Part shown: positions 21,999 to 58,646 of the stretch, piece after piece
Position numbering within the stretch: position 1 is the first letter of the stretch
Layout of the letters: the number at the start of each line of letters is the position of its first letter
IMG/VR virus record: IMGVR_UViG_3300044940_000380
Coordinates: 1 to 59,474 of that record
From: a virus
Taxonomy: Duplodnaviria; Caudoviricetes
DNA: 59,474 nucleotides
Reading direction: 5' to 3' (one strand)
Made by a program: the position numbers and the translations under genes
Notes under the pieces: model-generated
Databases searched by the model: none
What the model was told of the DNA's origin: nothing
Seen by the model: only the letters and a program-made list of their open reading frames with translations

Positions 21999-22517
21999 TT
22001 AAAATTCATTTGTGGTTCTTGGAATATTGTTTGGACTCATGATTGGAAGTTTTATATTTGGATTTGGAAATGAAGTTGGCCATCTAGTTGCTAAAAGTCT
22101 GTTTTTTGCAATTCTAGATATGTTTACAGAATTCGATTGATTCCCACCAAGAACATAATAGTCTGTTGAATCTTCACCTACTAAAAATCCTACGTGGCCG
22201 CCTTCATTTCGAGAAAAAACTGCTATAGCCCCATAAACTGGAACCGTTGGAACACCAAAATGAATCCAATTTCTGGCCCAGTATGGATTCTTTGCTAATT
22301 CACCAGTGAAAGTTTCATTTGGTAATGATTTTTTAATGGCAGTTTCAACATAATCGCCACACCAAGGAAGTGCTTTTGGATCTCCAAGTGTTTTTCCATC
22401 GCTTTTTAACCAAGCTTTTAATTCTGCATTATTGTTAATCTCGTGTAATCCAAAAACTTTTTTACCTTCTACTATCCAAGGTAATTCAGTTTCTTTCTTT
22501 TTGAATAATCCAAACAT
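21999..22517 (-). CDS. TIGR02594-family NlpC/P60-like peptidoglycan hydrolase
   Basis: PWCG.YV, ARNW, GGHVGF, VLGGNQSN.V. Confidence 0.85.
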   Translation of the reverse strand: MFGLFKKKETELPWIVEGKKVFGLHEINNNAELKAWLKSDGKTLGDPKALPWCGDYVETAIKKSLPNETFTGELAKNPYWARNWIHFGVPTVPVYGAIAVFSRNEGGHVGFLVGEDSTDYYVLGGNQSNSVNISRIAKNRLLATRWPTSFPNPNIKLPIMSPNNIPRTTNEF

Positions 22518-22789
22518 ATTATTTCCTTTTATTGTTAAATCTATACATATATATATTTATCAAAATAAAGAAATCATCTATAAGTAATAAACAACAATTT
22601 TTTGAGTTTGAATAAATTTTCATTGATAAAATTTACTATTTTAGAATCAAATATGTTTTGGATTTTCTTATAATTATGGTTTATTATTGAATTAAAATAA
22701 TTTAATTCATTTATTTTGAAAAAATGTGTTGACATTAACCTAAAAATATTGTATTTCTTAATTACAAAGTAAGAATCGAGAATGGACTC

Positions 22790-22963: not shown

Positions 22964-23243
22964 TTTATAACAAAAATAGAAATTTAAGAAACTATCATGC
23001 TAATTTAGCAGATAGTTTTTTATGAATATTACGAAATTACAAAAATAAATAAAAAAAATGAATAACAATCATTATATAGAATTAATTAATATTTTTTCTA
23101 AACACTATATCATTTTCTGTTGACATTCATCAAAAATAGTATATACTGATATTCGAAGAAAACGGTTGATGAATAAGTTTGAATGAAAATGATGAATTTT
23201 TAATGAATTAAATTAACTTATGCGATTTATATTTAAGATTTTT

Positions 23244-23321: not shown

Positions 23322-23336
23322 AAGTAATTTAGTATT

Positions 23337-23370
23337 GCTTACTTACTTCAGTTGGATAGAGCAAGTGCCT
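23337..23370 (+). pseudogene. 5' half remnant of a tRNA (Arg-like D arm)
   Basis: CAGTTGGATAGAGCAAGTGCCT then abrupt AT-rich sequence. Confidence 0.4.
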
Positions 23371-23405
23371 AAATTTAAATAAATAAATTAAAGATGATTT
23401 TTGAT

Positions 23406-23484: not shown

Positions 23485-23813
23485 TAAACCATCTTTGATT
23501 TAAAAGAGATTTTTTATATCAGGTCTACAAGTATTGTAAAAAAGAATTTAGTAAAAAGGATATAGCTAATCATAGCAGATGGTGTGATTTTAATCATCAA
23601 CAAACAATTATGCTAAAACATAGATCATTTGTTGACCTTCCAGAGTATGATAGATACCTCGATTCTAAAAACAAACGTGCTATAAAAGTCCAAGAAAATA
23701 AACTAAAAATGTTGTTGACACGACATAAAAACATTGATATATTTGATTCACTTGAAGGTTATAGAACTTTTACTATTGAAGATTAGAATTTCTTAGGAAG
23801 CGCCAAGTTTAAT

Positions 23814-23972
23814 CGTCCTAGTACCCGGGGCGATAGAGAAAGCCTGTCTCTTTACGCGGGTTTTTCTTGAGTGGGAATTAACCCATAATTAGTAAAGATA
23901 CGGTTACGCTGCCGCTCGGCGTAACAAGAGATCAATGCACACTGAGTTATTCGGGGTGTATAGGGGCGGCCA
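23814..23972 (+). ncRNA. Putative structured ncRNA ending in CCA
   Basis: GC-rich island with several hairpins; promoter 23715-23743; 5' CGTCCT can pair with 3' GGGGCG before G-CCA. Confidence 0.55.
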
Positions 23973-23979
23973 TATTTTT

Positions 23980-24058
23980 GGGGAATGGGACTGCTTGTGG
24001 TGGTCACCGAGTTTGCACCTCGGACATCAGGTGGGTTAGAATCCCACATTCTCCACCA
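23980..24058 (+). tRNA. Atypical tRNA-Ala(TGC)
   Basis: Acceptor GGGGAAT/ATTCTCC with G3:U70; CCGAG-TTTGCAC-CTCGG; CCA; non-canonical position 8, D loop and T loop. Confidence 0.8.
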
Positions 24059-24290
24059 AAAAACAAAAGATTGATCGTAGCAAAATAAAAAAGAAATTAG
24101 AAATTCAAAAGTTAATAAACTTAATGATATATTTGACAAATAACTCATAATATTTTATCATAGTAGAAAAAAGATCAATAGTTTTATCATGATCATTTGT
24201 TGACTGTCGATATGTTAAATTTTGTTGTTGACATTCATCTGTGAATATGATATATATTATATAGAAAATAAAAAAACTGCTTTTTGACAA

Positions 24291-24451
24291 TATAATGGCA
24301 CTGGCATAAAACGCACCGATGAGCTGGCTGTCGTAAACCCAGTGCTTTTATAAGTCTCTCGGATCTATTGGTTCGACATTTTTTCTGACAGTAACCCTGC
24401 CGACAAACTGGTTGTGGTAAACTCAGAAAAAGAAACCAAAGATCCGAGAGA
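24291..24451 (+). ncRNA. Putative ncRNA: two hairpins each capped by a related 34-nt loop motif
   Basis: GCACTGG/CCAGTGC and TCTCTCGGATCT/AGATCCGAGAGA stems; promoter 24228-24256. Confidence 0.65.
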
Positions 24452-24517
24452 AGCTAAAAAATACTATCTCAAATATATTTAATATTAACTAAAGAGCATT
24501 AATCATATTTAAATTTT

Positions 24518-24595
24518 GCCCTGATGGTGAAATTGGTAAACACAACGGACTTAAAATCCGTCTTTTTGTGGGTTCGAGTCCCACTCAGGGTACCA
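24518..24595 (+). tRNA. tRNA-Leu(TAA)
   Basis: GCCCTGA/TCAGGGT, ACGGA-CTTAAAA-TCCGT, GGTTCGAGTCC, CCA; short variable region. Confidence 0.9.
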
Positions 24596-24601
24596 ATAAT
24601 T

Positions 24602-24675
24602 GCGGGTGTGATGTAATGGTAGCTTCTCAGCCTTCCAAGCTGATGGTACGGGTTCGATTCCCGTCACCCGCTCCA
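24602..24675 (+). tRNA. tRNA-Gly(TCC)
   Basis: GCGGGTG/CACCCGC, TCAGC-CTTCCAA-GCTGA, U73, CCA. Confidence 0.95.
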
Positions 24676-24743
24676 AGTTAATATAATTTATTTAAGCTTC
24701 TACAACGAAATTGATATACGTAACAAATTCAAATTAAATATTT

Positions 24744-24820
24744 TTCCGCCTTAGCTTAGTTGGCAGAGCAAGTAGCTGTTAATCACTGAGTCGTAGGTTC
24801 AAGCCATACAGACGAAACCT
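24744..24820 (+). pseudogene. Degenerate tRNA-Asn(GTT), second copy
   Basis: TAGCTTAGTTGGCAGAGC D arm, CTGTTAA loop, GGTTCAAG; stems broken, no CCA. Confidence 0.55.
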
Positions 24821-25291
24821 ATTTTGATTTAAACTTTGTCATTCAACCAAATTTATCAATTAAATCAGATTTTACTTTTTGAATAAAAGTTTATAATAAT
24901 TCTTATAATATGATAAAATTGTAGACACATAAACTTAAAGCATTTGTAATGAAAATCATAGAAGTTTGAATTTATCTATAAGTATCAATATTTCATTAAT
25001 AATTTTTTTTACATTTTTTTATTGTAAAAAATAGAAATATTGTTAATAATATTTTTGAATGGTGAATAAGATATTTAATCTTATTCGCCTTGTTTATATT
25101 ATTGTTTTGATTAATTTACATATAAAATAAATAAACAAAAAATGATATCAAAAATAATATTGATTACAAAGAAAATTATTTCTTAAATTTTAAGAAAAAC
25201 TCATTAATAACTTTTAATATAAAATGCTTTAAAAGTAAAAAACTTTAATTCATAATATCAAAAAATTCATTATTTATAGGAGATATTTTAA

Positions 25292-48493: not shown

Positions 48494-49024
48494 ATGACCA
48501 ACTACGCTCAGATCGAACAGCGGACCGCTTTTCTTCATACCGAATTCGGTGAAGAACTTGCTCGTCGGTGGTTCGGCGATGAATCCGTCAACGCACTTCC
48601 TCGTTACAAGCGCGGTAAACATAAGGGTAAAATCAAAGGTGCAGTCACTTGGTCAAAAGTTCTTCGTGGCGGTTGGGTTCGTGATGGCTTGTATGGTTAC
48701 GTTGAAAACCGCGTTGGTCACGTCTTTGAACGCAAGCTTCACGAGATTTATTTCAACTTTAATGGAACTCATGTGGGTCGAGTTTTGCGCGATCTTGATA
48801 AAGAACAAGAAATGAATCAGATTTCTGATACTGTTCGTATTGATATCGACAATCAAATTCGCAAAATTGATCGCTATCGTTCCAAACTTGAAACCACTAT
48901 TCTTTCCGAAAAGTTTGATGAATATGCTGAAGATTTTCGGCGAATCATTTCTGAATACAATGAAGAAATCGCTGCTCTTATCGAGCAGCTCAAAAAACTT
49001 CAAATAAATAAATTTAATGAGTAA
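48494..49024 (+). CDS. Hypothetical early protein
   Basis: TTTACA..TATACT promoter near 48435, GAGGG RBS, elevated GC. Confidence 0.75.
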   Translation: MTNYAQIEQRTAFLHTEFGEELARRWFGDESVNALPRYKRGKHKGKIKGAVTWSKVLRGGWVRDGLYGYVENRVGHVFERKLHEIYFNFNGTHVGRVLRDLDKEQEMNQISDTVRIDIDNQIRKIDRYRSKLETTILSEKFDEYAEDFRRIISEYNEEIAALIEQLKKLQINKFNE

Positions 49025-50390
49025 AAAACAAAAAATACCCTCAAAAGAAGAAATATTAGAACTTTATGAAAGAGAAGGATGTACAATTTCTTCTCTTTCA
49101 AGATACTATAATAAGTCAAATCCTACAATAAGATCTTGGCTCATTCATTATGGAATACCAAGAAAATCTCAAAAACAGGCTTCTGCAGAAGCCAATAAAC
49201 TTAAAAGTAGCTCTCCAAGTAAAACTGAATTAAAAGAAGCATATTCAAAATCTTCATTAAAAGAAATTCAAAGTACTTTCAAGATAAGACAAAACAAGAC
49301 TTATAGTTTATTAAAAGAATATAATTTACCTATAAGAACACATTCTGAAGCGACATCTTTAGGTAAAAAGAAACAATATTCAGAAAAGCAATTTTCTAAA
49401 GAATTATTGGAAGAAATATATGAAAGAAATCAACCAATCGAAAAATTAGCTTTTCAACTTTCTGTATCTGTTTCTCATTTAAAAAAACTTTTTAAATCAT
49501 ATAATATTAAACCAGAAATACTTTATAGAAGCAAAAAAGAAATGGAATTATTTGATTATTGTAGAGAAAAATATAAAGAAGATGAATGGGTCTATTGTGA
49601 TAAGAGTGTAATAGCTCCATATGAACTTGATATAGTGAATAAAACAAGAAAAATTGCAATCGAATATTGCGGATTGTATTGGCATTCAGAAAATACCGGT
49701 AAAAAAGATTCAAATTATCATTTCAACAAATTTCTTATGTGCAAAAAAGCCGGTTATAAGCTGATAACTGTTTTTGAAAATGATGACATGAATAAAATCA
49801 AATCTTTACTTGATACTTTACATCAAAAAAATAAAAGAATATATGCAAGAAACACAGAAATTGTTGAAATAAATCCTTATTCAGCTCGTCGTTTTTGTGA
49901 AAAATATCACATGAATGGTTTTGTCGGTGGTAAGTATCATTATGGTCTTGTGCACAATTTAAATTTAGTTATGGTATGTTCTTTTGGTGTATCTCGTTTC
50001 AATAAAAAAATGGAATATGAGTGCACACGAATGGCATGTGCATCAGGTATTACTGTTGTTGGAGGAGCTTCTAAACTTTTCAAGCACTTCATCAAAACAG
50101 TAAAACCGTCTTCGTGTGTTACATATGCAGATCTTCGTTTTGGTGAAGGTGACGTTTATAAACATTGTGGATTTAAATTTGAACAATATACTGGAGCAAA
50201 TTATTGGTATTTTCATAAAGATAACACGTCAGTTCTTTTTTCAAGAGTAAAATTTCAAAAACACAAATTGAAAGATAAACTGCAATTTTTTGATGAAAAC
50301 TTGACAGAATATCAAAATATGTTAGCAAATGGTTGGGACAGAATATGGGACTGTGGAAATGCTAAATACATTTGGCATTCCAATGAATAG
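49017..50390 (+). CDS. Hef-like putative homing endonuclease (HTH repeats + nuclease + GNAT-like domain)
   Basis: ELDI..IAIEYCGLYWH; YAR..HM.G..GGASKL..YAD.RF..G.VY..GF..DCG. Confidence 0.75.
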   Translation: MSKKQKIPSKEEILELYEREGCTISSLSRYYNKSNPTIRSWLIHYGIPRKSQKQASAEANKLKSSSPSKTELKEAYSKSSLKEIQSTFKIRQNKTYSLLKEYNLPIRTHSEATSLGKKKQYSEKQFSKELLEEIYERNQPIEKLAFQLSVSVSHLKKLFKSYNIKPEILYRSKKEMELFDYCREKYKEDEWVYCDKSVIAPYELDIVNKTRKIAIEYCGLYWHSENTGKKDSNYHFNKFLMCKKAGYKLITVFENDDMNKIKSLLDTLHQKNKRIYARNTEIVEINPYSARRFCEKYHMNGFVGGKYHYGLVHNLNLVMVCSFGVSRFNKKMEYECTRMACASGITVVGGASKLFKHFIKTVKPSSCVTYADLRFGEGDVYKHCGFKFEQYTGANYWYFHKDNTSVLFSRVKFQKHKLKDKLQFFDENLTEYQNMLANGWDRIWDCGNAKYIWHSNE

Positions 50391-52065
50391 AGAAGAAGTT
50401 ATTTCTTTTATATTAGAAACTATAAAGAAAAGTCCATATGGATATATGAAGATTTTAAAATCAAAACGCTCTGAAATAGAACAGCATTTTACTTTAGTCA
50501 CAGATTCATTTAAAGAAAATTTATATTTACTTGTTCATGGTATAAAGGAAATTCCTTTATGTCAAGTGTGTAAAGAAAAGAAGAAAGTCTTTTTTGATTT
50601 CAAAAAAGGTTATGGAAAAACATGTTCAAAATTATGTTCTGCAAAATTGGGCGGAGAAGCAAATAAAAGAAAATTGTCAAAAATAACACTTGAAGAAAAA
50701 AGAAAAATTGAAGAAAAAAGAATTAACACAAATCAGTTATTATATGGAGTAAATTATCCTCTTCAAAGAGAGGAATCAAAGAAAAAATTCAAACAAACTT
50801 GTAAAGAGCGATACGGTGATTCACATTTTATGAAAAATGAATATTTTTATGAACACTATAAATCAAAAATAAAAGAAAAATATGGAGTAGAATTTTACTT
50901 TCAAACTGAAGAATCTAAATCTAGAAGTTCGATATTGATTCATCAAAAACATTCAAACAACTTTTTCAAAAATTATTTCTTTCAAAGATATGGTGTAGAA
51001 AATTATTATCAAACAGAAGAAGGTTTACGAAAACAATTAAGAGAAAGAAATTGTGAATTTCTTTTTGAAACAATTGAACAATATTTAGACGGAAGGACAT
51101 ATCTTGAGATAGCAAATCAATTCAATATAACAGATCATATGATCAAAAAAATAATTTTATTTAAAGGAATTGATTATACACCAATTAAGTATGAAAGTTC
51201 TTTTGAAAGAGAAATAAAAGAATTCTTATTGAAACATATAAGCCCTCAAGATATGATATTCAATGATAGAACAATTTTAAATGGTCTTGAATTAGATGTG
51301 CTGATACCAAACAAAAATTTAGCAATAGAATGTAATGGTGTATATTATCACACAGACCAATTTAAAGAACCAGAATATCATAAACAAAAATATGAGATGT
51401 GCAGAGCTCTTAATATTCTTTTAATACAAATAGATGATATAGATTATTATAAAAATAAAGAAAAATGGCAATATTTTATACTATCTAAACTTAATAATAA
51501 TATGAAAACTGTATATGCAAGAAACTGTGAAATAAAGGAAGTTTCATCTCAAGATGCTAAAGTTTTTATAGAAAACAATCATCTTCAGGGATATGCTAAT
51601 TCAAGATTTAAATTCGGATTATATGATAATAAATCAAATGAATTAGTTGCTATATCAACTTTTGCTAAACCAAGATTTTCTCAAAAATATGATTATGAGC
51701 TTGTAAGATTCTGTTCTAAAAGAGGAATCAGAGTTTTGGGTGGTTTTTCTAAATTAATTTCACATTTTTATAAAAATGTGATGAAAAAAGACGAAACATG
51801 TGTTTCTTATGCAAATTGTTTTTGGTCAAATGGTGATGTTTATGAAAAAACTGGATTTTCTTTTGTGAGAACTACAAGTCCAAATTATGTATGGTCGGAT
51901 GGAAAGACAAAATTGAGTAAATATCAATCTCAAAAGAAGAAATTATTTGAAAAATACGGTGATATCGTAAAAACAGAAGAAGATTTTATGCGAAATGTTC
52001 TTCGAATGAATAGATATTATGATGCTGGAAATAGAATTTATGTATTAAAAAAAGGCGAGATTTAA
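50383..52065 (+). CDS. Hef-like putative homing endonuclease
   Basis: CxxC..CS..C Zn motif, KYG repeats, ELD..P..NLAIECNG.YYH, same C-terminal domain. Confidence 0.75.
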   Translation: MNREEVISFILETIKKSPYGYMKILKSKRSEIEQHFTLVTDSFKENLYLLVHGIKEIPLCQVCKEKKKVFFDFKKGYGKTCSKLCSAKLGGEANKRKLSKITLEEKRKIEEKRINTNQLLYGVNYPLQREESKKKFKQTCKERYGDSHFMKNEYFYEHYKSKIKEKYGVEFYFQTEESKSRSSILIHQKHSNNFFKNYFFQRYGVENYYQTEEGLRKQLRERNCEFLFETIEQYLDGRTYLEIANQFNITDHMIKKIILFKGIDYTPIKYESSFEREIKEFLLKHISPQDMIFNDRTILNGLELDVLIPNKNLAIECNGVYYHTDQFKEPEYHKQKYEMCRALNILLIQIDDIDYYKNKEKWQYFILSKLNNNMKTVYARNCEIKEVSSQDAKVFIENNHLQGYANSRFKFGLYDNKSNELVAISTFAKPRFSQKYDYELVRFCSKRGIRVLGGFSKLISHFYKNVMKKDETCVSYANCFWSNGDVYEKTGFSFVRTTSPNYVWSDGKTKLSKYQSQKKKLFEKYGDIVKTEEDFMRNVLRMNRYYDAGNRIYVLKKGEI

Positions 52066-52075
52066 ATCTCGCCTT
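52049..52075. terminator. Terminator hairpin between convergent genes
   Basis: AAGGCGAGAT-ttaa-ATCTCGCCTT; A run gives a U tail for the gp23 transcript. Confidence 0.75.
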
Positions 52076-52109
52076 AGTTCGATTCGGTTGATTCCGAATT
52101 CTTTTTTTA

Positions 52110-53414
52110 TTAAAGAAGGTTGATGACGCGCATCTTTCTGTAGTAAACGTTACTATTTGGAGTGAGTGCTCCAAGATTTTGTGCAGCACCTCCAGCGAAT
52201 GGGTTTGCAACCATGCCATATCTTGTTTTGAAGCCGATTTTTGGCTGGAAGCTGTGCTCACCGACGGCGCGGTACATTTGTAGAGGTACATATGGGCAAT
52301 AGAAAATACCCGCGTCAAATGCAGAACTACCCTTATAACCAACAATTAGATAGTTTCCTCCAGAATATGGATCAATATAAACACGGTAGCGGCTATTAAG
52401 AACACCAGCAAAAGTAATACCCGTATCATCTACGTTAAGAGCATTGCTGTTAAGAGCTGGTGCATAATCAAGAACACCGGCCATTTGCAATGCTGAAGCT
52501 ACGTCAGAGGAACAAATAACGATGTTACCCTTCCCTCTACGAGTCGCTTTTGCGACGGCGTTAGCTTCTGTTTCAATTTGCATCATGAGCCCTTTATACT
52601 TTTCAACTGACCAGCGACCATTTGCATCTACATCAAGGTCGAAAATACCACTGTTTGCAGTATTAACAGCACCAGTAACTGCAGCACTATATATTGTACG
52701 AATAACTTCTCTGTTAATCTCAACGAGAATTTCAGATGAAAGAATATTTGCAAGCTCAGTTTCAGCATCCAAACCATGAATTGCTTTGAGGTCCTGTGCA
52801 ATTTCAGTGGTGTATTCTGTTTTTAGTGCGCGGCTTTTAGCAGTTACAGTTACTTTTTCAATTGAGAATGCCATTTCTGCGAAGTCGTTAGTTCCTGGAA
52901 TAGAACCAAGAGCTTCTGCATCGGCAGTATTCATAGCAGTACCGTAGTTAGTATTGTTTGGAAGTCCTGCCGTGTTTGGAGTGCCTGTACCAGAAAATGC
53001 AGTATTTGCTTCATCGTAAAATGCTTCTGGACCTGACATTGAATTGTATCTAGAACGCATTGCAAAAATAAGACCTGTAGGACCCGTCATTGGCTGAACG
53101 CCTGCAATATCATATGCAATGAGATTGGGCATTGCACGACGAACTAGACTGATAAGAACTGGATCGTAACCAGCAACAGGACCAGCTGCTGGAGAAGAAC
53201 CACCAAATCCTCCAGTTCCAACCGCATTAGTTGGAGTTTCAAAAAGAAGTGAAGTCATAGAAACACCAGAACGGTCTTCCATAAGAGCTTTTTCTGTGTT
53301 TTCAAGAACCACAGCAGTCACAAACTTCTTTTTATTATCATTAATTGGATCAAAGGCTTTATGCTCAAGTAGAGGACCCCACTTTGACATCAAGTCTCTG
53401 TTTAATTGATTCAT
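52110..53414 (-). CDS. gp23: Major capsid protein
   Basis: DPVLISLVRRAMPNLIAYDIAGVQPMTGPTGLIFAMR, SRALKTEY, FYCPYVPL, PKIGFKTRYG; TATAAATA at 53447-53454. Confidence 0.98.
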   Translation of the reverse strand: MNQLNRDLMSKWGPLLEHKAFDPINDNKKKFVTAVVLENTEKALMEDRSGVSMTSLLFETPTNAVGTGGFGGSSPAAGPVAGYDPVLISLVRRAMPNLIAYDIAGVQPMTGPTGLIFAMRSRYNSMSGPEAFYDEANTAFSGTGTPNTAGLPNNTNYGTAMNTADAEALGSIPGTNDFAEMAFSIEKVTVTAKSRALKTEYTTEIAQDLKAIHGLDAETELANILSSEILVEINREVIRTIYSAAVTGAVNTANSGIFDLDVDANGRWSVEKYKGLMMQIETEANAVAKATRRGKGNIVICSSDVASALQMAGVLDYAPALNSNALNVDDTGITFAGVLNSRYRVYIDPYSGGNYLIVGYKGSSAFDAGIFYCPYVPLQMYRAVGEHSFQPKIGFKTRYGMVANPFAGGAAQNLGALTPNSNVYYRKMRVINLL

Positions 53415-53472
53415 TTTGTCTCTCCTTATTGTTGTTATTCTAGTTTTATTTATAAATTTTTATTTTTTACAA

Positions 53473-54453
53473 TTATTTGAAAACACGATTATTAAGAGCT
53501 TTTACTATAGCATCAACAGATGAATAACCGGAAGGAGAAGATTTTGTTTCTTCTGTAAGAAGAGGTTCTTCTTCATCGTTGAATTTTTCATTAAATGTGG
53601 ACACGGAAGAATTTTTCTTTTTGAAGAAAGATTCTTTTAAAGTCTGAAGAGAAGAAGCATATTCGTCAAGATCGCTCTTATCTATTTTTTCAGAAAGTAT
53701 TTTAAGTCTTTCTTTTTGAGAAACTGTAAGTCCTTCTGCAATTTCGTTAAAGACCTTTTCTGCTTGCATCTCAGAAATTAATTTAATAAGTTCAATATTT
53801 TCATTAATAACTTCATTTGCTTTCTTTTCTAATTCAACTACTTGATTCTCAAGAACAGATACAACATCAACTTTTTCGTCATCTATATCTATATTATGCT
53901 CTATAAATAACGTTTTTAGTCCTTCCATAAAGGACTCTGCCATTTCTACTTTAATACCAGATTCAATAGCAATTTTATTATCTTCCATCCATTCTGAAAT
54001 GATATAATCAAGATATGAATCAAGACTTTCTACAATTTCATCAATTATATCATTTACTCTACTTTCAATTTTATTAGACATTTCTTCTTCGATTTGTTCA
54101 GTAATTTTTGATGCCTTTATGGTAGCAGCTTCATTTACTGCTGCTTCAAAAACCATTGAAACTTTTTTCTTAAAATCTTCAGAAAGATCCATTCCTTCAA
54201 AAATTGAAGCTATGGATTCTCGTATAGAAATTTCTTCAAGAGAATCTTCTTCATCAAGATCTTCATCTTCTTTAAGATTTTTTTCTAATTCTTCTTCGTC
54301 TTCGGGCATTGTTAGTTTTTTTGGATCCTGATCAACCTTTTTATTTAAATCTGCTAGACGCTTTTTTACTTTTCCTCCAGCTGGTATAACTGGGCTTGGA
54401 ACACTAGAAACACCGTCATCAGCAACAAATTTTTCTTTTAAATCATGTGACAT
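53473..54453 (-). CDS. gp22: Prohead core scaffold protein
   Basis: LSEDFK.K...FEAAV, DSYLDY...EW..N..AIE.GIK.E.AESF..GLK..F.EH; TATAAATA at 54489-54496. Confidence 0.92.
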   Translation of the reverse strand: MSHDLKEKFVADDGVSSVPSPVIPAGGKVKKRLADLNKKVDQDPKKLTMPEDEEELEKNLKEDEDLDEEDSLEEISIRESIASIFEGMDLSEDFKKKVSMVFEAAVNEAATIKASKITEQIEEEMSNKIESRVNDIIDEIVESLDSYLDYIISEWMEDNKIAIESGIKVEMAESFMEGLKTLFIEHNIDIDDEKVDVVSVLENQVVELEKKANEVINENIELIKLISEMQAEKVFNEIAEGLTVSQKERLKILSEKIDKSDLDEYASSLQTLKESFFKKKNSSVSTFNEKFNDEEEPLLTEETKSSPSGYSSVDAIVKALNNRVFK

Positions 54454-54517
54454 TTTTATCTCCTTTTTATTGGACATTTTCATATTATTATTTATAATAA
54501 TTCATTTATCAAATGAA

Positions 54518-56219
54518 TTAATGAAAATTCGAGTATACAAAACAATAATTACCAGCATCTAATAATTTTTTATTATTTATAATTTGAATATTTTCTTTTA
54601 CATTTTTGAAAATATGATTAGAGTTACTATGATAAATTTTATTCATTCCAATTTCTTTAAAAACTGATCCATCAGAAAATCTTGCATCTGAATAAGCTAT
54701 TACGTTTCTTGGACTGAAATCTTCAATGAATTTTTTCCAAAGTTTTTCTGCTCCTCCTGATACATAAAAACCAAGACGAGAACATATTGTAATTATTTTC
54801 CATTTATGGATATCAGATGTATCTTGAGAAAAAGAAGCAATTTGAACAATGTTGTTTTCTGAATCTATAAGACCATAATTAACAGATCCCGGTTCACAAA
54901 ATTCTATACTATTATCATTGATAAATTTTTGAGCAGAATTAAAAGAGATTTGAATGATCCGACAATTTTCAATATTTATTCTTTTAAAAAATTTTAAAAC
55001 ATCTTTCAAAAGAAACATTATTTTCTCATACTTTTCAATCAATTCCCAATCAAAAAATTGTAATAAACGTATATTTGCTTTTTCTGCTGCAATTGCTTTT
55101 TCTCTATGTTGATCACCAACTTTATCTTCTGTATGCCAATAAGAACCATGATATTCTATACCCAAATTATAATCTGGAAGCCAAATATCTATTTCTTTTG
55201 GAAAAATTACAGAACGAGTGTTTCTTATTATTTTGATATTCGGGTCAATTTCAAGTAACATTTTACAAATGATTTCTTCACCGCTTGAAGTAGAACAAGA
55301 ATAAGATCTGTCTAATATCGAAAATCCATTCTTTTTAAATTTTCGAGCAAGTGTATTGCGATCTATTCCTAAAGATTTTGCGAGCTGATTGATTGAAAGT
55401 GAATCGTTTTTATAATAATCATTATAAAGATTTTCAACATCATAAGTAAGAATATGAAATAGATCTTCACCATAATAATTGAATTTTTTTCTCTTTGAAG
55501 ATTTTTGAGATATTAAAGAAGATTGCATAGCATTACGTACATTGTATTTTTCTTCATTTGTTTTTTCTATTTTAGAAAGAAGAATTTTTGAAGAAAATCC
55601 TCTGCCGCCATATTTAGATTTTAGTGTATTTGTTATAGATTCTATAATTTTTTGAGAGCCAAATGGATTTTCTGAACCATATTTTTCTAAACACGTCTTT
55701 TTGATTTGATCAGAATTTCTATAATTTTCATTTCCATATTTTTTTAATTTTGTTTCTTTAGCTTTACTTATATTTACAAAGAATTCATCTCCATATAAGA
55801 TCTTTTTTGTCCTTCTTGCTTTGATGACCATAGAATTGTAATCAAAGAATGTTTCTGATCCATATTTGTTCAAACAAGTTTGTTTACGTTTTTTAACAGC
55901 AGAATTCCAATCTATTTTTTCTTTTCTTTTTTTCTTGTACACATTCTTTATGAGCATAAACGCGTTTTCTTCTATTACTTATATTGAAAAAATCTAATTC
56001 ACCGCCACAAATATTACAAAAAGGTATAACGCAATTTTTGTTGATAACAATATCAACAATCAAATCGATTGGTGCTCTTTTTAAAAAAGTCTCATAAAAA
56101 AGATTTTCTACAATAGAATCTTTAGTTAAATCTCTTTTAGAATTAAGAGTATTGTTTTTAGTTAATAATTTTAATTCTTTGAATAATTCTAAAAAAGGCG
56201 TGTCACATGGTGTTATCAT
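54518..56219 (-). mobile_element. Hef-like endonuclease split by a one-base frameshift (ORFs 55893..56219 and 54518..55957)
   Basis: N-terminal CxxC fragment continues in the +1 frame at an A7 run into KYG repeats and EIDI..IEYHGSYWH. Confidence 0.7.
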
Positions 56220-56230
56220 GATTTAAAAAA

Positions 56231-56932
56231 TCAATAGTTATTTTTAAGATTATTTACAAAATCTTCAAAAATTCTTATTGCTTTTCTTTCATCAATTTTT
56301 GGACTTGTAACTTTAGATTTTGGTTTGATATATTCTTTTTTCAATTCTTTAACTGTTTCTTGAATATACTGTTGAACTTTCCAAGTTCCAGAAGCTATAT
56401 CATAATAGTATTCTGTATTTTCCATTATACCATTTACAAAGCATTGAGGACCGCTAGGATCCGTCACGATATCTATAGCAGCAAGATGAAAATCATCTTG
56501 AACTTCCATAATACCATTTTTTATGGGCTTTACAGATCCAAGACCTCTTGTAGAAACGCCTATTTTCACGCCTTCTTCGATAAATGTTTTTGCAATTTGG
56601 CCCATAGGAGTTGAAAGAATTTTAGCTTTACCTAAGAAATTTGAACCTTCACGTTTCATTTCTGTAATCAAATGCGAAACACGATCCTGATTAATCTGAG
56701 GTCCATTTGGATGACCGAGTTCACCAAGAGCTCTGTTTGTTTTGATAAATGTTTCATTATATCTGTTCATTTCTTTTTCTAAGACATGTGAAGGATAGAT
56801 GCGGCCGTTCCTATTCTGAATATCACCTTGCATAAAAATGCCTGTAATATAAAGAGACTTTTTTCCACTTTCGTTTGATTCAGTAAGAACTTCACAATTT
56901 TCGTTAAATACTTCTGTTATAAGTAGTGCCAT
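56231..56932 (-). CDS. gp21: Prohead protease
   Basis: GIFMQ..N.NGRIY, ALGELGHP, RVSH, GVSTRGLGS, DIVTDPS; TATAAATA at 56965-56972. Confidence 0.95.
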   Translation of the reverse strand: MALLITEVFNENCEVLTESNESGKKSLYITGIFMQGDIQNRNGRIYPSHVLEKEMNRYNETFIKTNRALGELGHPNGPQINQDRVSHLITEMKREGSNFLGKAKILSTPMGQIAKTFIEEGVKIGVSTRGLGSVKPIKNGIMEVQDDFHLAAIDIVTDPSGPQCFVNGIMENTEYYYDIASGTWKVQQYIQETVKELKKEYIKPKSKVTSPKIDERKAIRIFEDFVNNLKNNY

Positions 56933-56963
56933 TTTTTCCTCTTAATTTTTTGTTATTATTATT

Positions 56964-58646
56964 TTATTTATAATAAACAAAAACTTTATTACCAGCATCA
57001 AAAATTATTCTATAACCATTAGATAACATATTTTCTTTTTCTGATAATTCAGGATTAAATCCTTCTTTAAGCAAATTTTTCAGTTTATGTTTTTGCGCAG
57101 AAATTCTTGATAATTTATCTTGTCCTTTAATATACCAGTAATTTGGAGAAGAATCATGAGAATAGTTAAATCCAAGTTTTTCATATAATTTTCCATTAAA
57201 TAATCTATTATCTGAAAAACTTATAATTGAACTAAAATTAAAGTTTTTTGTAAAATAACTGAATAATTTGGAAGCACCTCCTCTTATAGAAGAATATTTT
57301 TTGTTACAAAATCGTATCATTTCATAATCATGATTACTTTTTGATCTAGGTCTTGAAAAAGACATAATTGAAACTAATTCATCTTTATGAAATAAACCTA
57401 ATTTAATTCGAGAAGGAGCATAACCCTGCATATGATTTTCTTCACAAAAAAGTTTGTACTCTTTTAAAGAAATTTCTTTTACAAGACAATCTCTTGCATT
57501 AATTTTATGATCGTAAAAACCAAATCTAGATTTAATTAGAGAAAAAACGATATCTTCTTTTTCTTCTAATTCCCAATCAAATAATTGAATTAATTCTATG
57601 TTTGCTTTTTTAGCTAATAAGTATTTATTTTGATGTTTACTTTCTTCTATATTTGAATGCCAAAAAGATCCATGATATTCTATACCTAAATTGAATTCAG
57701 GAATGTAAAGATCTATTTCTTTTTGACCGCCTAGTAATTTTCTATCATGAGAAATGATTTTTCCATCATAAAAAGACTCTATAAATTGTTTAATGATGAG
57801 TTCGCCATTAGATACATAATATCTTCTTATTATCGGCAGATTCAAATCTATTAATTGAGATTTTACATAATTAAAAGGTAAATTATATTTCTTACATATA
57901 TAAGAAATAGTATGACCTTCTTCTACATGCTCTTTATCATAGATTTCCTTTAAAGATTTAATTGAATTCTTTTGTTCTTCCAAAAAAAGATTCCAATAAT
58001 TTTCCATTCTAGTTTTTATTGATTTTTGAATTACATTAAAATTTTTATTTGGATGATCAACACCATATTTTTGAATAAAAGTTTGTTTTCTTTTTTCTTT
58101 TACTTCAAAAGAAGAAGATACATTTTCAACACCATATTTTTCTATATTAGTTTTCTTAATTTTTTCCTTAACTTTTTCTGATTGAAATGGATTACTTACA
58201 TTATGATTTTTATTTAATGTGTTTAATCTTTTTTGTTTAATTTCATTATTTTTGAATGAATGTTCAACGCCATATTTTTTTATGCAAGTTTCCTTATACT
58301 TTTTCTTAGTAGAGTTCAATTGAGAAATATGTTCAACACCATATCTTTTTATTGTTGTGATTTTTCTCTTTTCATTTTTTTCTTTTTTTCTACAATCATA
58401 ACAAATGAATTTACGAAAATCAAGTTTCTTAGTAAGAGGAGAACTACAAATGATACAAATAGTATTTCCTGTTTGCAATAAACAATTAATTTTATCTATA
58501 AGTTGTATTTCTTCATCAATTTCAAACAAATCTTCTATTTTAGAAGCTAATTCTTTATCTATTTTTTGATGAAGATTTTTTCTGATAATTTTGTTTGAAT
58601 TAGTTAAAAGCTTACTCTTAATTTCAGCAATCACATCTTGAATCAT
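56964..58646 (-). CDS. Hef-like putative homing endonuclease
   Basis: CxxC..CxxC, KYGV repeats, EIDLYIP..GIEYHGSFWH, NHMQG..RFC..GGASKL..DAG. Confidence 0.75.
   Translation of the reverse strand: MIQDVIAEIKSKLLTNSNKIIRKNLHQKIDKELASKIEDLFEIDEEIQLIDKINCLLQTGNTICIICSSPLTKKLDFRKFICYDCRKKEKNEKRKITTIKRYGVEHISQLNSTKKKYKETCIKKYGVEHSFKNNEIKQKRLNTLNKNHNVSNPFQSEKVKEKIKKTNIEKYGVENVSSSFEVKEKRKQTFIQKYGVDHPNKNFNVIQKSIKTRMENYWNLFLEEQKNSIKSLKEIYDKEHVEEGHTISYICKKYNLPFNYVKSQLIDLNLPIIRRYYVSNGELIIKQFIESFYDGKIISHDRKLLGGQKEIDLYIPEFNLGIEYHGSFWHSNIEESKHQNKYLLAKKANIELIQLFDWELEEKEDIVFSLIKSRFGFYDHKINARDCLVKEISLKEYKLFCEENHMQGYAPSRIKLGLFHKDELVSIMSFSRPRSKSNHDYEMIRFCNKKYSSIRGGASKLFSYFTKNFNFSSIISFSDNRLFNGKLYEKLGFNYSHDSSPNYWYIKGQDKLSRISAQKHKLKNLLKEGFNPELSEKENMLSNGYRIIFDAGNKVFVYYK

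What the first reader, a model, noticed from the sequence alone, without database searches (positions are those of the whole stretch)
24291..24451. Promoter-linked ncRNA with two copies of a 34-nt structured loop on unrelated stems
Seen: hairpin 1 (GCACTGG/CCAGTGC) encloses cataaaacgcaccgatgagctggctgtcgtaaac. Hairpin 2 (12-bp TCTCTCGGATCT/AGATCCGAGAGA, then TTGGTT/AACCAA and TTTTTCTGA/TCAGAAAAA) encloses cagtaaccctgccgacaaactggttgtggtaaac. Both loops are exactly 34 nt and 23/34 identical, while the stems share no sequence. Positions 9:28 covary (G-C vs C-G), and 10:26 and 11:25 stay pairable. A TTGACA-N17-TATATT promoter lies at 24228-24256. Inference: a conserved tertiary RNA module shown in tandem, such as a protein or ligand decoy (anti-defence sponge), an aptamer or a small ribozyme. 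I cannot match it to a family I recognise.
Basis: partly seen in the sequence, partly recalled or inferred. Interest (0 to 1): 0.85.

Follow-up and report, generated by a model that had tools for sequence, protein, structure and literature searches.

The report
Twin hairpins in phage tRNA cluster
Two neighbouring hairpins that share a duplicated 42-base tip sit between tRNA genes of an uncultured T4-like phage and are probably a small structured RNA made together with the tRNAs, but no relative or transcript could be found, so its role stays open.

Summary
The sequence is as described. Hairpin 1 (24291-24352) and hairpin 2 (24355-24451) each enclose a 34-nt tip, and the tips are 23/34 identical. 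The region folds far better than shuffles (z -7.2).

Corrections:
- The innermost stem pairs CTG/CAG are shared, so the repeated unit is about 42 nt.
- The -10 hexamer reads TATATA, not TATATT.
- The tips alone fold no better than shuffles (z -0.4).
- The claimed 9:28 covariation uses a register with pair probability about 0.01 in copy 2.

Context: an uncultured distant T4-like phage at 29% GC. The element lies on the tRNA strand, 35 nt after an early-type promoter and 66 nt before tRNA-Leu/Gly/Asn.

Searches found no Rfam family. Four pattern scans, 51 related virus records, 19 CHAP-gene loci (five with 7-31 tRNAs) and the T4 tRNA region gave no homologue. No RNA run holds the stretch.

Best reading (0.45): a leader or stable by-product RNA of the tRNA operon, analogous but not homologous to T4 RNA C/D, showing one recognition module twice. 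The decoy, aptamer and ribozyme readings are untested. Interest is moderate to low.

The parts
24228..24256 (+). Early-type sigma-70-like promoter: TTGACA, 17-nt spacer, TATATA. Expected transcript start is about 24263-24266.
   Evidence: Letters read. The -35 region GTTGACATT(C/A)A recurs at 22727 and 23113/23120 in front of other small-RNA units (families D3 and D14). The start site is inferred, not shown.
24291..24352 (+). Hairpin 1: outer A-U pairs 24291-95/24348-52, G-U 24297/24346 and core stem 24298-24304/24339-24345. It is followed by TTTT.
   Evidence: Minimum-energy folds (z -3.1 alone; 2 of 300 shuffles as good).
24301..24342 (+). Module copy 1: 42 nt, made of CTGG, the 34-nt tip 24305-24338 and CCAG.
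   Evidence: Alignment A1; 66.8 bits to model R1, which was built from it.
24355..24451 (+). Hairpin 2: 28 pairs in three helices (12 + 6 + 10), with one bulged A and a 5x1 internal loop, capped by module copy 2.
   Evidence: Folds (z -6.6 alone; 0 of 300 shuffles as good). The structure persists in minimum-energy folds at 50, 60 and 70 C.
24385..24426 (+). Module copy 2: 42 nt, made of CTGA, the 34-nt tip 24389-24422 and TCAG. It lies exactly 84 nt downstream of copy 1.
   Evidence: Alignment A1; 63.9 bits to R1.
24359..24385 (+). Alternative small hairpin (7 pairs) plus T-run inside the 5' arm of hairpin 2. It is terminator-like and could form before the 3' arm is transcribed.
   Evidence: Consensus scan. 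That scan found 3 sites in the region against 1.8 +/- 1.1 in shuffles, so this is not significant on its own.
24278..24286 (+). 5' strand of a predicted 9-pair outer helix that would enclose both hairpins. Its partner is 24490-24498.
   Evidence: pair probabilities 0.80-1.00. This is a prediction only, and both strands are AU-rich.
24490..24498 (+). 3' strand of the predicted outer helix.
24518..24595 (+). tRNA-Leu(UAA), the first tRNA downstream. tRNA-Gly follows at 24602-24675 and tRNA-Asn at 24745-24819. The next terminator-like site is at 25061-25089.
   Evidence: ARAGORN, Rfam tRNA model and the terminator scan.
23980..24058 (+). tRNA-Ala(UGC)-like gene upstream. No terminator-like site lies between it and the element.
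   Evidence: ARAGORN and the scan.

Best explanation
The element is a non-coding structured RNA domain of a phage tRNA operon.

Proposed sequence of events:
- Transcription starts at the early-type promoter at 24228-24256, or reads through from tRNA-Ala.
- It runs through hairpin 1, hairpin 2 and a 66-nt AU-rich spacer into tRNA-Leu, tRNA-Gly and tRNA-Asn.
- RNase P cleavage at the 5' end of tRNA-Leu would release the two hairpins as a leader fragment of about 250 nt, or a shorter trimmed form.
- Its long stems should make it stable, like RNA C and RNA D of the T4 tRNA cluster.

The two hairpin tips arose by duplication of a unit of about 42 nt. The tip sequence has been kept while the supporting stems diverged but stayed paired. 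This argues that the tip is read sequence-specifically by one trans-acting partner, most likely a protein. That partner could be a processing nuclease or a bound or sequestered RNA-binding protein, seen twice per RNA.

Shown: the sequence anatomy, structure significance, paralogy, non-coding state and genomic context.
Inferred: transcription, processing, stability and the existence of a partner.
For: Genomic context:
- The element lies on the same strand as all 7 tRNA genes, in a 459-nt gap between tRNA-Ala and tRNA-Leu.
- No ORF of 30 aa or more overlaps 24291-24488 on either strand. All six frames are broken or lack start codons.
- A TTGACA-N17-TATATA promoter ends 35 nt upstream. Its extended -35 region is repeated in front of other units of the cluster.
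- The synteny is T4-like: a cell-wall hydrolase gene, then tRNAs, then the repeat-protein genes that an earlier, unchecked note (e1-6294499) reads as capsid-internal proteins.

Structure:
- Folding z is -7.2 on the + strand against -5.2 on the - strand.
- The inner hairpin uses G-U pairs that are lost on the - strand.
- The hairpins persist in minimum-energy folds up to 70 C, which matters for a hot-spring or mat source.

Paralogy:
- The 42-nt units share 23/34 tip positions plus the 3 innermost stem pairs. 4 of the 7 closing-stem pairs are changed on both sides and still pair.

Precedent:
- T4 encodes two small RNAs in its tRNA region whose roles are unknown (passage read in PMC3014915; T4 annotation).
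Against: - There is no transcript evidence of any kind.
- No homologue was found. The tally was 0 of 36 capsid-related virus records, 0 of 19 CHAP-gene loci including five with 7-31 tRNAs and 0 of 15 whole records. T4 rnaC/rnaD did not match. Four pattern scans gave only chance-level hits. Conservation beyond this one genome is therefore unshown.
- Related strains in the same sample align to 23700-24063 at roughly 87-90% identity, but no contig from them aligns to the element at 80% or more.
- The tips alone are not significantly structured, and the two copies prefer different inner registers.
- Both DNA strands fold well, because the main stems are Watson-Crick. A DNA-level role is therefore not excluded.
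Confidence: 0.45

Rival explanations
1. Purely cis-acting signals of the tRNA transcript. The long duplex of hairpin 2 and the shorter hairpin 1 would be double-strand-specific (RNase III-type) processing sites, 5'/3' stabilisers or leaky terminators/attenuators. They would separate the tRNA-Ala unit from the tRNA-Leu unit, and the released RNA would have no function of its own.
For: - Hairpin 2 has 28 pairs interrupted by small loops.
- Hairpin 1 is followed by TTTT.
- A small terminator-like hairpin plus T-run lies in the 5' arm of hairpin 2.
- The element sits between two promoter-driven units.
- From recall: T7 early RNase III sites are hairpins with an internal bubble and share sequence among themselves.
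Against: - Such signals need structure, not 23/34 identical tip sequence on diverged stems.
- Hairpin 1 has only 13 pairs and four U.
- The terminator scan is not enriched over shuffles: 3 sites against 1.8 +/- 1.1.
- The host and its nucleases are unknown.
Confidence: 0.2
2. The element has no present function. It would be a local duplication in a hyperplastic, fast-changing tRNA region, for example a remnant of recombination between promoter cassettes, with hairpins kept by chance or by recent origin.
For: - The element is an orphan in every search.
- Related strains in the same sample appear to differ here. One contig joins 24063 to 24271, skipping the 207-nt promoter spacer, but with only 21 letters on the short side.
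- Promoter cassettes are repeated in the cluster, as in the terminator-promoter cassettes (PeSLs) of T4-like phages (passages of PMC4122927).
Against: - Two different, near-perfect stems of 13 and 28 pairs around the two copies are very unlikely without selection (z -3.1 and -6.6).
- Neutral decay should have eroded tips and stems alike. Instead the stems changed completely yet still pair.
Confidence: 0.1
3. A DNA-level element. The inverted repeats and the repeated 34-bp core would be binding or cleavage sites for a phage DNA protein (homing endonuclease, recombination or replication-origin function), or the scar of a small mobile element.
For: - The - strand also folds strongly (z -5.2).
- The region is AT-rich with several promoters, as recalled for T4 and T7 origins.
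- The window carries four homing-endonuclease-like genes, and an endonuclease-like zinc-finger remnant lies 500 nt upstream (my own reading of the translation).
Against: - The inner pairing uses G-U pairs that exist only on the + strand.
- There is no second copy elsewhere in the 59 kb.
- The two hairpins do not share terminal repeats as copies of one mobile element would.
- There is no turn in cumulative GC skew here.
Confidence: 0.1
4. One reading: an anti-defence decoy RNA. It could be a CRISPR-repeat mimic (Racr / solitary repeat unit), a pseudo-antitoxin of a type III toxin-antitoxin system, or a sponge for another RNA-binding defence protein.
For: - A promoter lies directly upstream, as reported for viral solitary repeat units (passages of PMC10651486).
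- There are two copies of a unit of repeat-like length (34-42 nt).
- The setting is a tRNA cluster. From recall, phage tRNAs can counter tRNA-cleaving defences.
Against: - The consensus pattern scan of one genome for each of 185,579 species returned 27 loci, each with a single match and none an array. All 27 lie in open frames, in differing frames and peptide contexts, and the one I read in full (L107) is a 475-aa ORF.
- The units are 68% identical, 84 nt apart and buried in hairpins. They are not head-to-tail (Tandem Repeats Finder lists no array).
- No cas or toxin-like neighbour appears among the 10 nearest ORFs.
- The host is unknown, so its repeats could not be compared.
Confidence: 0.08
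5. A small self-cleaving ribozyme or a metabolite aptamer present in tandem.
For: - Tandem similar domains on variable stems occur in some riboswitches (recalled: guanidine-II, NAD+-I).
- Copy 1 contains CCGATGAG...CGTAAAC, which loosely recalls the hammerhead core (my reading).
Against: - No ribozyme or riboswitch model comes near its threshold. The best riboswitch match is preQ1-II on the opposite strand, 22.7 bits against a gathering score of 47.
- Copy 2 changes the hammerhead-like letters, and no stem II can form.
- The element lies upstream of tRNAs, not of an ORF.
- The tips are not significantly structured.
Confidence: 0.03
6. A decayed fragment of a protein-coding gene with an internal 28-codon repeat.
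For: - The copies are 84 nt (28 codons) apart and in one + strand frame. They read TDELAVVNP and ADKLVVVNS.
- 6 of the 11 differences fall on third codon positions (my count).
Against: - That excess is not significant (binomial about 0.12, hand calculation).
- The frame is closed by stops at 24285, 24351 and 24480 and has no start codon.
- Strong stems across a coding remnant are unexplained.
Confidence: 0.03

Closest known systems
T4 RNA C and RNA D (species 1 and 2 stable RNAs, T4 tRNA region)
   Same: - Non-tRNA, non-coding, structured small RNA genes.
- They lie inside a T4-type phage tRNA cluster on the tRNA strand, next to a lysis enzyme gene on one side and internal-protein-like genes on the other.
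- Their function is unknown (passage of PMC3014915).
   Different: - There is no sequence or structure similarity: the best R1 hit in the T4 region is 12.4 bits, in an unrelated place.
- T4 RNA C ends in a tRNA-like T-arm (my reading). This element has none.
- This element lies in the middle of the cluster behind its own promoter, and consists of two paralogous hairpins.
RNA anti-CRISPRs (Racr) / viral solitary repeat units
   Same: A short repeat-sized unit directly downstream of a promoter in a viral intergenic region (passages of PMC10651486).
   Different: - The defining similarity to a host CRISPR repeat could not be shown.
- The units are embedded in long hairpins and are only 68% alike.
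PeSL promoter-terminator cassettes of T4-like phages
   Same: Repeated early-promoter cassettes in a variable region (passages of PMC4122927).
   Different: - PeSLs are short stem-loops in front of the promoter and recur many times.
- Here two large hairpins lie behind the promoter, and only the promoter part is repeated.
Phage RNase III processing hairpins (T7 early region; recalled, not tested)
   Same: Long imperfect hairpins with an internal loop between transcription units, related to each other in sequence.
   Different: - No cleavage data exist and the host is unknown.
- Hairpin 1 is too short for a canonical double-strand-specific site.

Membership tests
Any Rfam 15 family | Covariance-model score at or above the family's gathering score | tested here: not met
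   (whole window): only 5 tRNA matches. (24060-24520, E up to 10): 12 matches, all far below their thresholds. The best are preQ1-II at 22.7 against 47 on the - strand, and mir-3910 at 21.4 against 95.
T4 RNA C / RNA D type stable RNAs | Encoded within the phage tRNA gene cluster, on the tRNA strand, and non-coding | tested here: met
   T4 layout.
T4 RNA C / RNA D type stable RNAs | Sequence or structure homology to T4 rnaC/rnaD | tested here: not met
   model R1 finds nothing at rnaC/rnaD in L082. The sequences were read.
T4 RNA C / RNA D type stable RNAs | Co-transcribed with the tRNAs, processed, and accumulating as a stable RNA | not testable with these tools
   No run on record as RNA holds the stretch.
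Racr / solitary repeat unit | Sequence and structure similarity to a CRISPR repeat of the host | tested here: inconclusive
   The host is unknown. The consensus pattern over GTDB representative genomes gave 27 loci with 1 match each and no array. All lie in open frames, in differing frames and peptide contexts. An exact-pattern scan is a weak test for a 68%-alike unit.
Racr / solitary repeat unit | Promoter within about 250 bp upstream | tested here: met
   TTGACA-N17-TATATA at 24228-24256. The criterion was read in PMC10651486.
Type III antitoxin RNA (ToxI-like; features recalled) | Head-to-tail tandem repeats next to an endoribonuclease toxin gene | tested here: not met
   Tandem Repeats Finder lists no array in the element. 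The units are separated by 50 unrelated nt. No PADLOC match of note among the 10 nearest ORFs.
PeSL cassette | Short terminator stem-loop immediately upstream of an early promoter, repeated through variable regions | tested here: not met
   The hairpins lie downstream of the promoter and occur once. Only the promoter part recurs.
Intrinsic terminator | G+C-rich hairpin with a short loop followed by a U-run | tested here: inconclusive
   One search lists only the small alternative hairpin at 24359-24376 plus its T-run, and the scan is not enriched over shuffles. Hairpin 1 has a 34-nt tip and four U.
Self-cleaving ribozymes and riboswitch aptamers | Match to the conserved core of a described class | tested here: not met
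   none near threshold. The hammerhead-like letters of copy 1 are not kept in copy 2.

The most novel reading that the evidence does not exclude
The twin tips are a bivalent decoy. In this reading, an abundant early phage RNA presents two copies of a recognition site to a dimeric host RNA-binding protein and titrates it. The target could be a defence nuclease, a CRISPR repeat-binding protein or a tRNA-targeting enzyme. This would be a new class of RNA-based counter-defence encoded among phage tRNAs.
Probability: 0.1. Interest if true: 0.75.

Novelty: new variant of a known kind. Interest (0 to 1): 0.35.

Why it matters
Phage tRNA clusters are known to hold non-tRNA small RNAs, such as T4 RNA C and RNA D, whose roles are still reported as unknown (PMC3014915). 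A second, unrelated example would be a useful handle on what such RNAs do. Its obvious internal logic is one sequence module displayed twice on different scaffolds. It would matter more if the partner turned out to be a host defence or RNA-processing protein. As it stands the element is a single orphan in an uncultured hot-spring or mat phage, so it is a lead rather than a result.

Tried and rejected
Searches for relatives, all negative:
- GenBank phages: megablast of 23900-24900 gave no match. Distant blastn of 24200-24520 hit 43 records, none covering more than 15% of the query and none of the 40 rows listed inside the element.
- Own record: one copy only.
- IMG/VR pattern scans:
  - Strict 3' consensus: 0.
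  - Relaxed 3' consensus: 7 stretches, about what my rough estimate gives for chance. The best was 23.6 bits, partial, inside a 578-aa ORF of L084, and no tRNA lay in any of the 7.
  - 5' consensus: 20 stretches, best 16.6 bits.
- GTDB genomes, strict pattern: 27 single matches, all inside open frames in differing frames and peptide contexts. The best, L107 at 33.9 bits, lies in a 475-aa ORF that reads to me like a sensor kinase; no family search was run on it.
- Anchors on flanking tRNAs:
  - tRNA-Ala 3' part: 0 in IMG/VR. One JGI contig, L090, ends 54 nt after its tRNA-Ala and shows nothing alike.
  - tRNA-Leu 5' part: one IMG/VR contig, L091, with a different cluster of 11 tRNAs and no match.
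- Model R1:
  - 36 of the 80 capsid-related contigs were searched, those over 10 kb; the other 44 were not searched. Result: 0.
  - 19 CHAP-gene loci: 0 at E up to 1.
  - 15 whole records: 0; L090 is not held and was not searched.
  - The positive control on the own record finds only the two training copies. The model is built from 2 sequences and is narrow.
- Protein routes:
  - The phrog_421 neighbour found no relative in IMG/VR.
  - The 88-aa upstream frame found only itself.

Other tests that led nowhere:
- Sequencing runs: 8 rows, all DNA, from hot-spring or microbial-mat metagenomes. No RNA holder is listed. Laid contigs of related strains do not cover the element.
- Antisense targets: no complementary word of 11 or more bases in the window. 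Words of 9-10 bases occur at or below the shuffled expectation.
- Coding: rejected.
- Similarity to a hairpin upstream of tRNA-Ala in L090: this was my own impression, and I rejected it (R1 at most 8.5 bits, fold z -1.06).
- Earlier notes by sequence: none.
- Supplementary tables of the Racr paper, which list the candidates, were not seen.

Full report
WHAT IS THERE. The window is a 59,474-base IMG/VR virus record, estimated about one third complete, with 29.5% G+C.

Its genes mark it as a distant T4-type myovirus:
- a major head protein of PHROG 138, best GenBank identity 65.8%;
- primase, ribonucleotide reductase and an Rnl1-type RNA ligase;
- homing-endonuclease-like genes.

Seven tRNA genes lie on the + strand between 21871 and 24819. 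The finding sits in the 459-base gap between tRNA-Ala(UGC) (23980-24058) and tRNA-Leu(UAA) (24518-24595).

CHECK OF THE OBSERVATION.
- Hairpin 1 has the core stem GCACTGG/CCAGTGC (24298-24304/24339-24345). A G-U pair and five A-U pairs extend it to 24291-24352.
- Hairpin 2 (24355-24451) has helices of 12, 6 and 10 pairs.
- Each hairpin encloses 34 nt, and the two 34-mers are 23/34 identical without gaps.

This is not chance:
- The consensus pattern occurs twice in the window and never in 100 shuffles.
- 16 of 200,000 random pairs of window 34-mers are as alike.
- The 176-nt region folds at -61.8 kcal/mol, z -7.2. Hairpin 1 alone has z -3.1 and hairpin 2 alone z -6.6.

Four corrections are needed:
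- The innermost three stem pairs (CTG/CAG) are shared, and the pair next to the tip changes G:C to A:T. The duplicated unit is therefore about 42 nt, and the stems are not wholly unrelated.
- The -10 hexamer is TATATA, not TATATT.
- The 34-mers on their own fold no better than shuffles, z about -0.4.
- In copy 2 the thermodynamic ensemble prefers an inner register shifted by one.

If copy 1's register is imposed on both copies, all 14 pairs are standard and 5 change on both sides. Four of those five are in the outer stem, and 16 of 500 column shuffles do as well. The real signal is therefore two strong but different stems carrying a paralogous tip. It is not a demonstrated conserved inner fold.

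CONTEXT AND STRAND.
- No ORF of 30 aa or more overlaps the element.
- The two copies are 84 nt apart in one + frame and read TDELAVVNP and ADKLVVVNS. That frame has stops at 24285, 24351 and 24480 and no start codon.
- Six of the 11 differences fall on third codon positions, which is not significant (about 0.12, hand calculation).
- The promoter at 24228-24256 belongs to a small family of GTTGACATT cassettes that precede other units of the cluster, at 22727 and 23113.
- No terminator-like site lies between tRNA-Ala and the element. The next convincing one is at 25061-25089, after tRNA-Asn.
- The - strand also folds (z -5.2) but loses most of the inner pairing, which depends on G-U pairs.
- The hairpins persist in minimum-energy folds at 50-70 C.
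- A 9-pair outer helix (24278-86 with 24490-98) is predicted with probabilities of 0.8-1.0. It is AU-rich and untested.

COMPARISON WITH WHAT IS KNOWN.
- Rfam gives nothing at gathering thresholds beyond tRNAs, and nothing credible at E up to 10.
- T4 carries two small RNAs of unknown role, rnaC and rnaD, in its tRNA region (passage of PMC3014915). Its layout (lysis enzyme, tRNAs, internal protein) resembles this window's: a CHAP-family hydrolase, tRNAs and HEAT/LRV repeat proteins. The covariance model R1 built from the two copies does not match them. The relation is by position and kind, not by descent.
- Racr / solitary repeat units share the promoter-proximal placement. Their defining similarity to a CRISPR repeat could not be shown.
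- PeSL cassettes share only the repeated promoter.
- Type III antitoxin arrays are head-to-tail, and this element is not.
- No defence-related neighbour is seen.

SEARCH FOR RELATIVES. Every route was negative; the details are in the Tried and rejected section.
- Pattern scans of IMG/VR and of one genome per species of GTDB gave only hits at chance-level numbers. These lie inside open frames, or score at most 16.6 bits for the 5' scan.
- R1 found nothing in 36 capsid-related records, in 19 loci around the CHAP gene or in 15 whole records. Five of the CHAP loci carry 7-31 tRNAs.
- tRNA anchors brought in two other clusters without the element.
- In the sample that holds the window, contigs of related strains align to 23700-24063 at about 87-90% identity but not to the element. 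One contig joins 24063 to 24271, with only 21 letters on the short side, which is weak.
- The nearest capsid relatives are about 75% identical in protein. No truly close relative was available, and R1 rests on two sequences. Absence here is therefore weak evidence of absence.

MECHANISM. The best-supported reading is that the hairpins are part of the primary transcript of the tRNA-Leu/Gly/Asn unit.
- That transcript would start at the promoter at 24228, or read through from upstream. RNase P cleavage at tRNA-Leu would free the hairpins as a leader RNA protected by its long stems.
- The tip sequence has been kept on stems that were otherwise replaced. This implies sequence-specific reading of the tip by a trans-acting partner, twice per RNA.
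- I put this at 0.45. Only the anatomy and context are shown. Transcription, processing, stability and the partner are inferred.
- Rivals, with my odds:
  - cis-acting processing or termination signals only (0.2);
  - no present function (0.1);
  - a DNA-level site (0.1);
  - an anti-defence decoy (0.08);
  - a ribozyme or aptamer (0.03);
  - a coding remnant (0.03).
- No antisense target exists within the window.

VERDICT. This is a real, unusual-looking but orphan structured element. It is a new variant of the known kind 'non-tRNA small RNA in a phage tRNA cluster'. Interest is 0.35. It would rise sharply with a transcript, a handful of diverged homologues or a binding partner.

Noticed in passing
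window 23786-23979: A G+C-rich non-coding stretch lies behind a TTGACA-N17-TATATT promoter (23715-23743) and directly before tRNA-Ala. It folds at z -2.75 (1 of 200 shuffles as good). It has no Rfam match. Two contigs of related strains in the same sample align to it at about 87-90% identity. It is probably a second small RNA of the cluster (noted earlier as e1-6294500).
   Followed up: partly
window 23980-24058: The tRNA-Ala(UGC) called by ARAGORN is 79 nt and has G3:U70 and an encoded CCA (my reading). It is missed by the Rfam tRNA model at gathering. It gives a weak tmRNA tRNA-like-domain match (14.9 bits, E 6e-4). A near-identical tRNA-Ala occurs in another phage tRNA cluster (L090).
   Followed up: partly
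window 23499-23786: An open frame with a zinc-finger-like start (YKYCKKEF...HSRWC, my reading) has no ATG before 23610. It may be a remnant of a homing-endonuclease-type gene inside the tRNA cluster. Only the window's own 58-aa product was found in 5.8 billion proteins.
   Followed up: partly
window 23335-23375: The stretch after tRNA-Met reads like the 5' half of a tRNA (acceptor plus D-arm-like letters) without the rest. It may be a tRNA gene fragment. This is by eye only.
   Followed up: no
window 22727-22775, 23113-23131, 24221-24274; also 23623-23636 and 24191-24204: Repeated early-promoter cassettes (GTTGACATT...) and an exact 14-nt repeat GATCATTTGTTGAC recur through the tRNA cluster. 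They recall the promoter part of the PeSL cassettes of T4-like phages.
   Followed up: partly
window 21999-22517 (-); loci L140, L141, L145, L149, L152: The CHAP / TIGR02594-family hydrolase gene sits inside the tRNA cluster here. In other large phages, one of them a 518-kb record, it is likewise embedded among 7-31 tRNA genes. This looks like a recurrent linkage.
   Followed up: partly
L140 7178-7252 and L141 13586-13660: Two unrelated large phage contigs carry a tRNA with anticodon CUA, labelled tRNA-Pyl by ARAGORN. These are amber-suppressor candidates and hint at stop-codon reassignment in those phages.
   Followed up: no
   Followed up: partly
window 49017-58646: Four DUF7487 / homing-endonuclease-like genes (PHROG 3339/559) surround the major head protein gene.
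   Followed up: no
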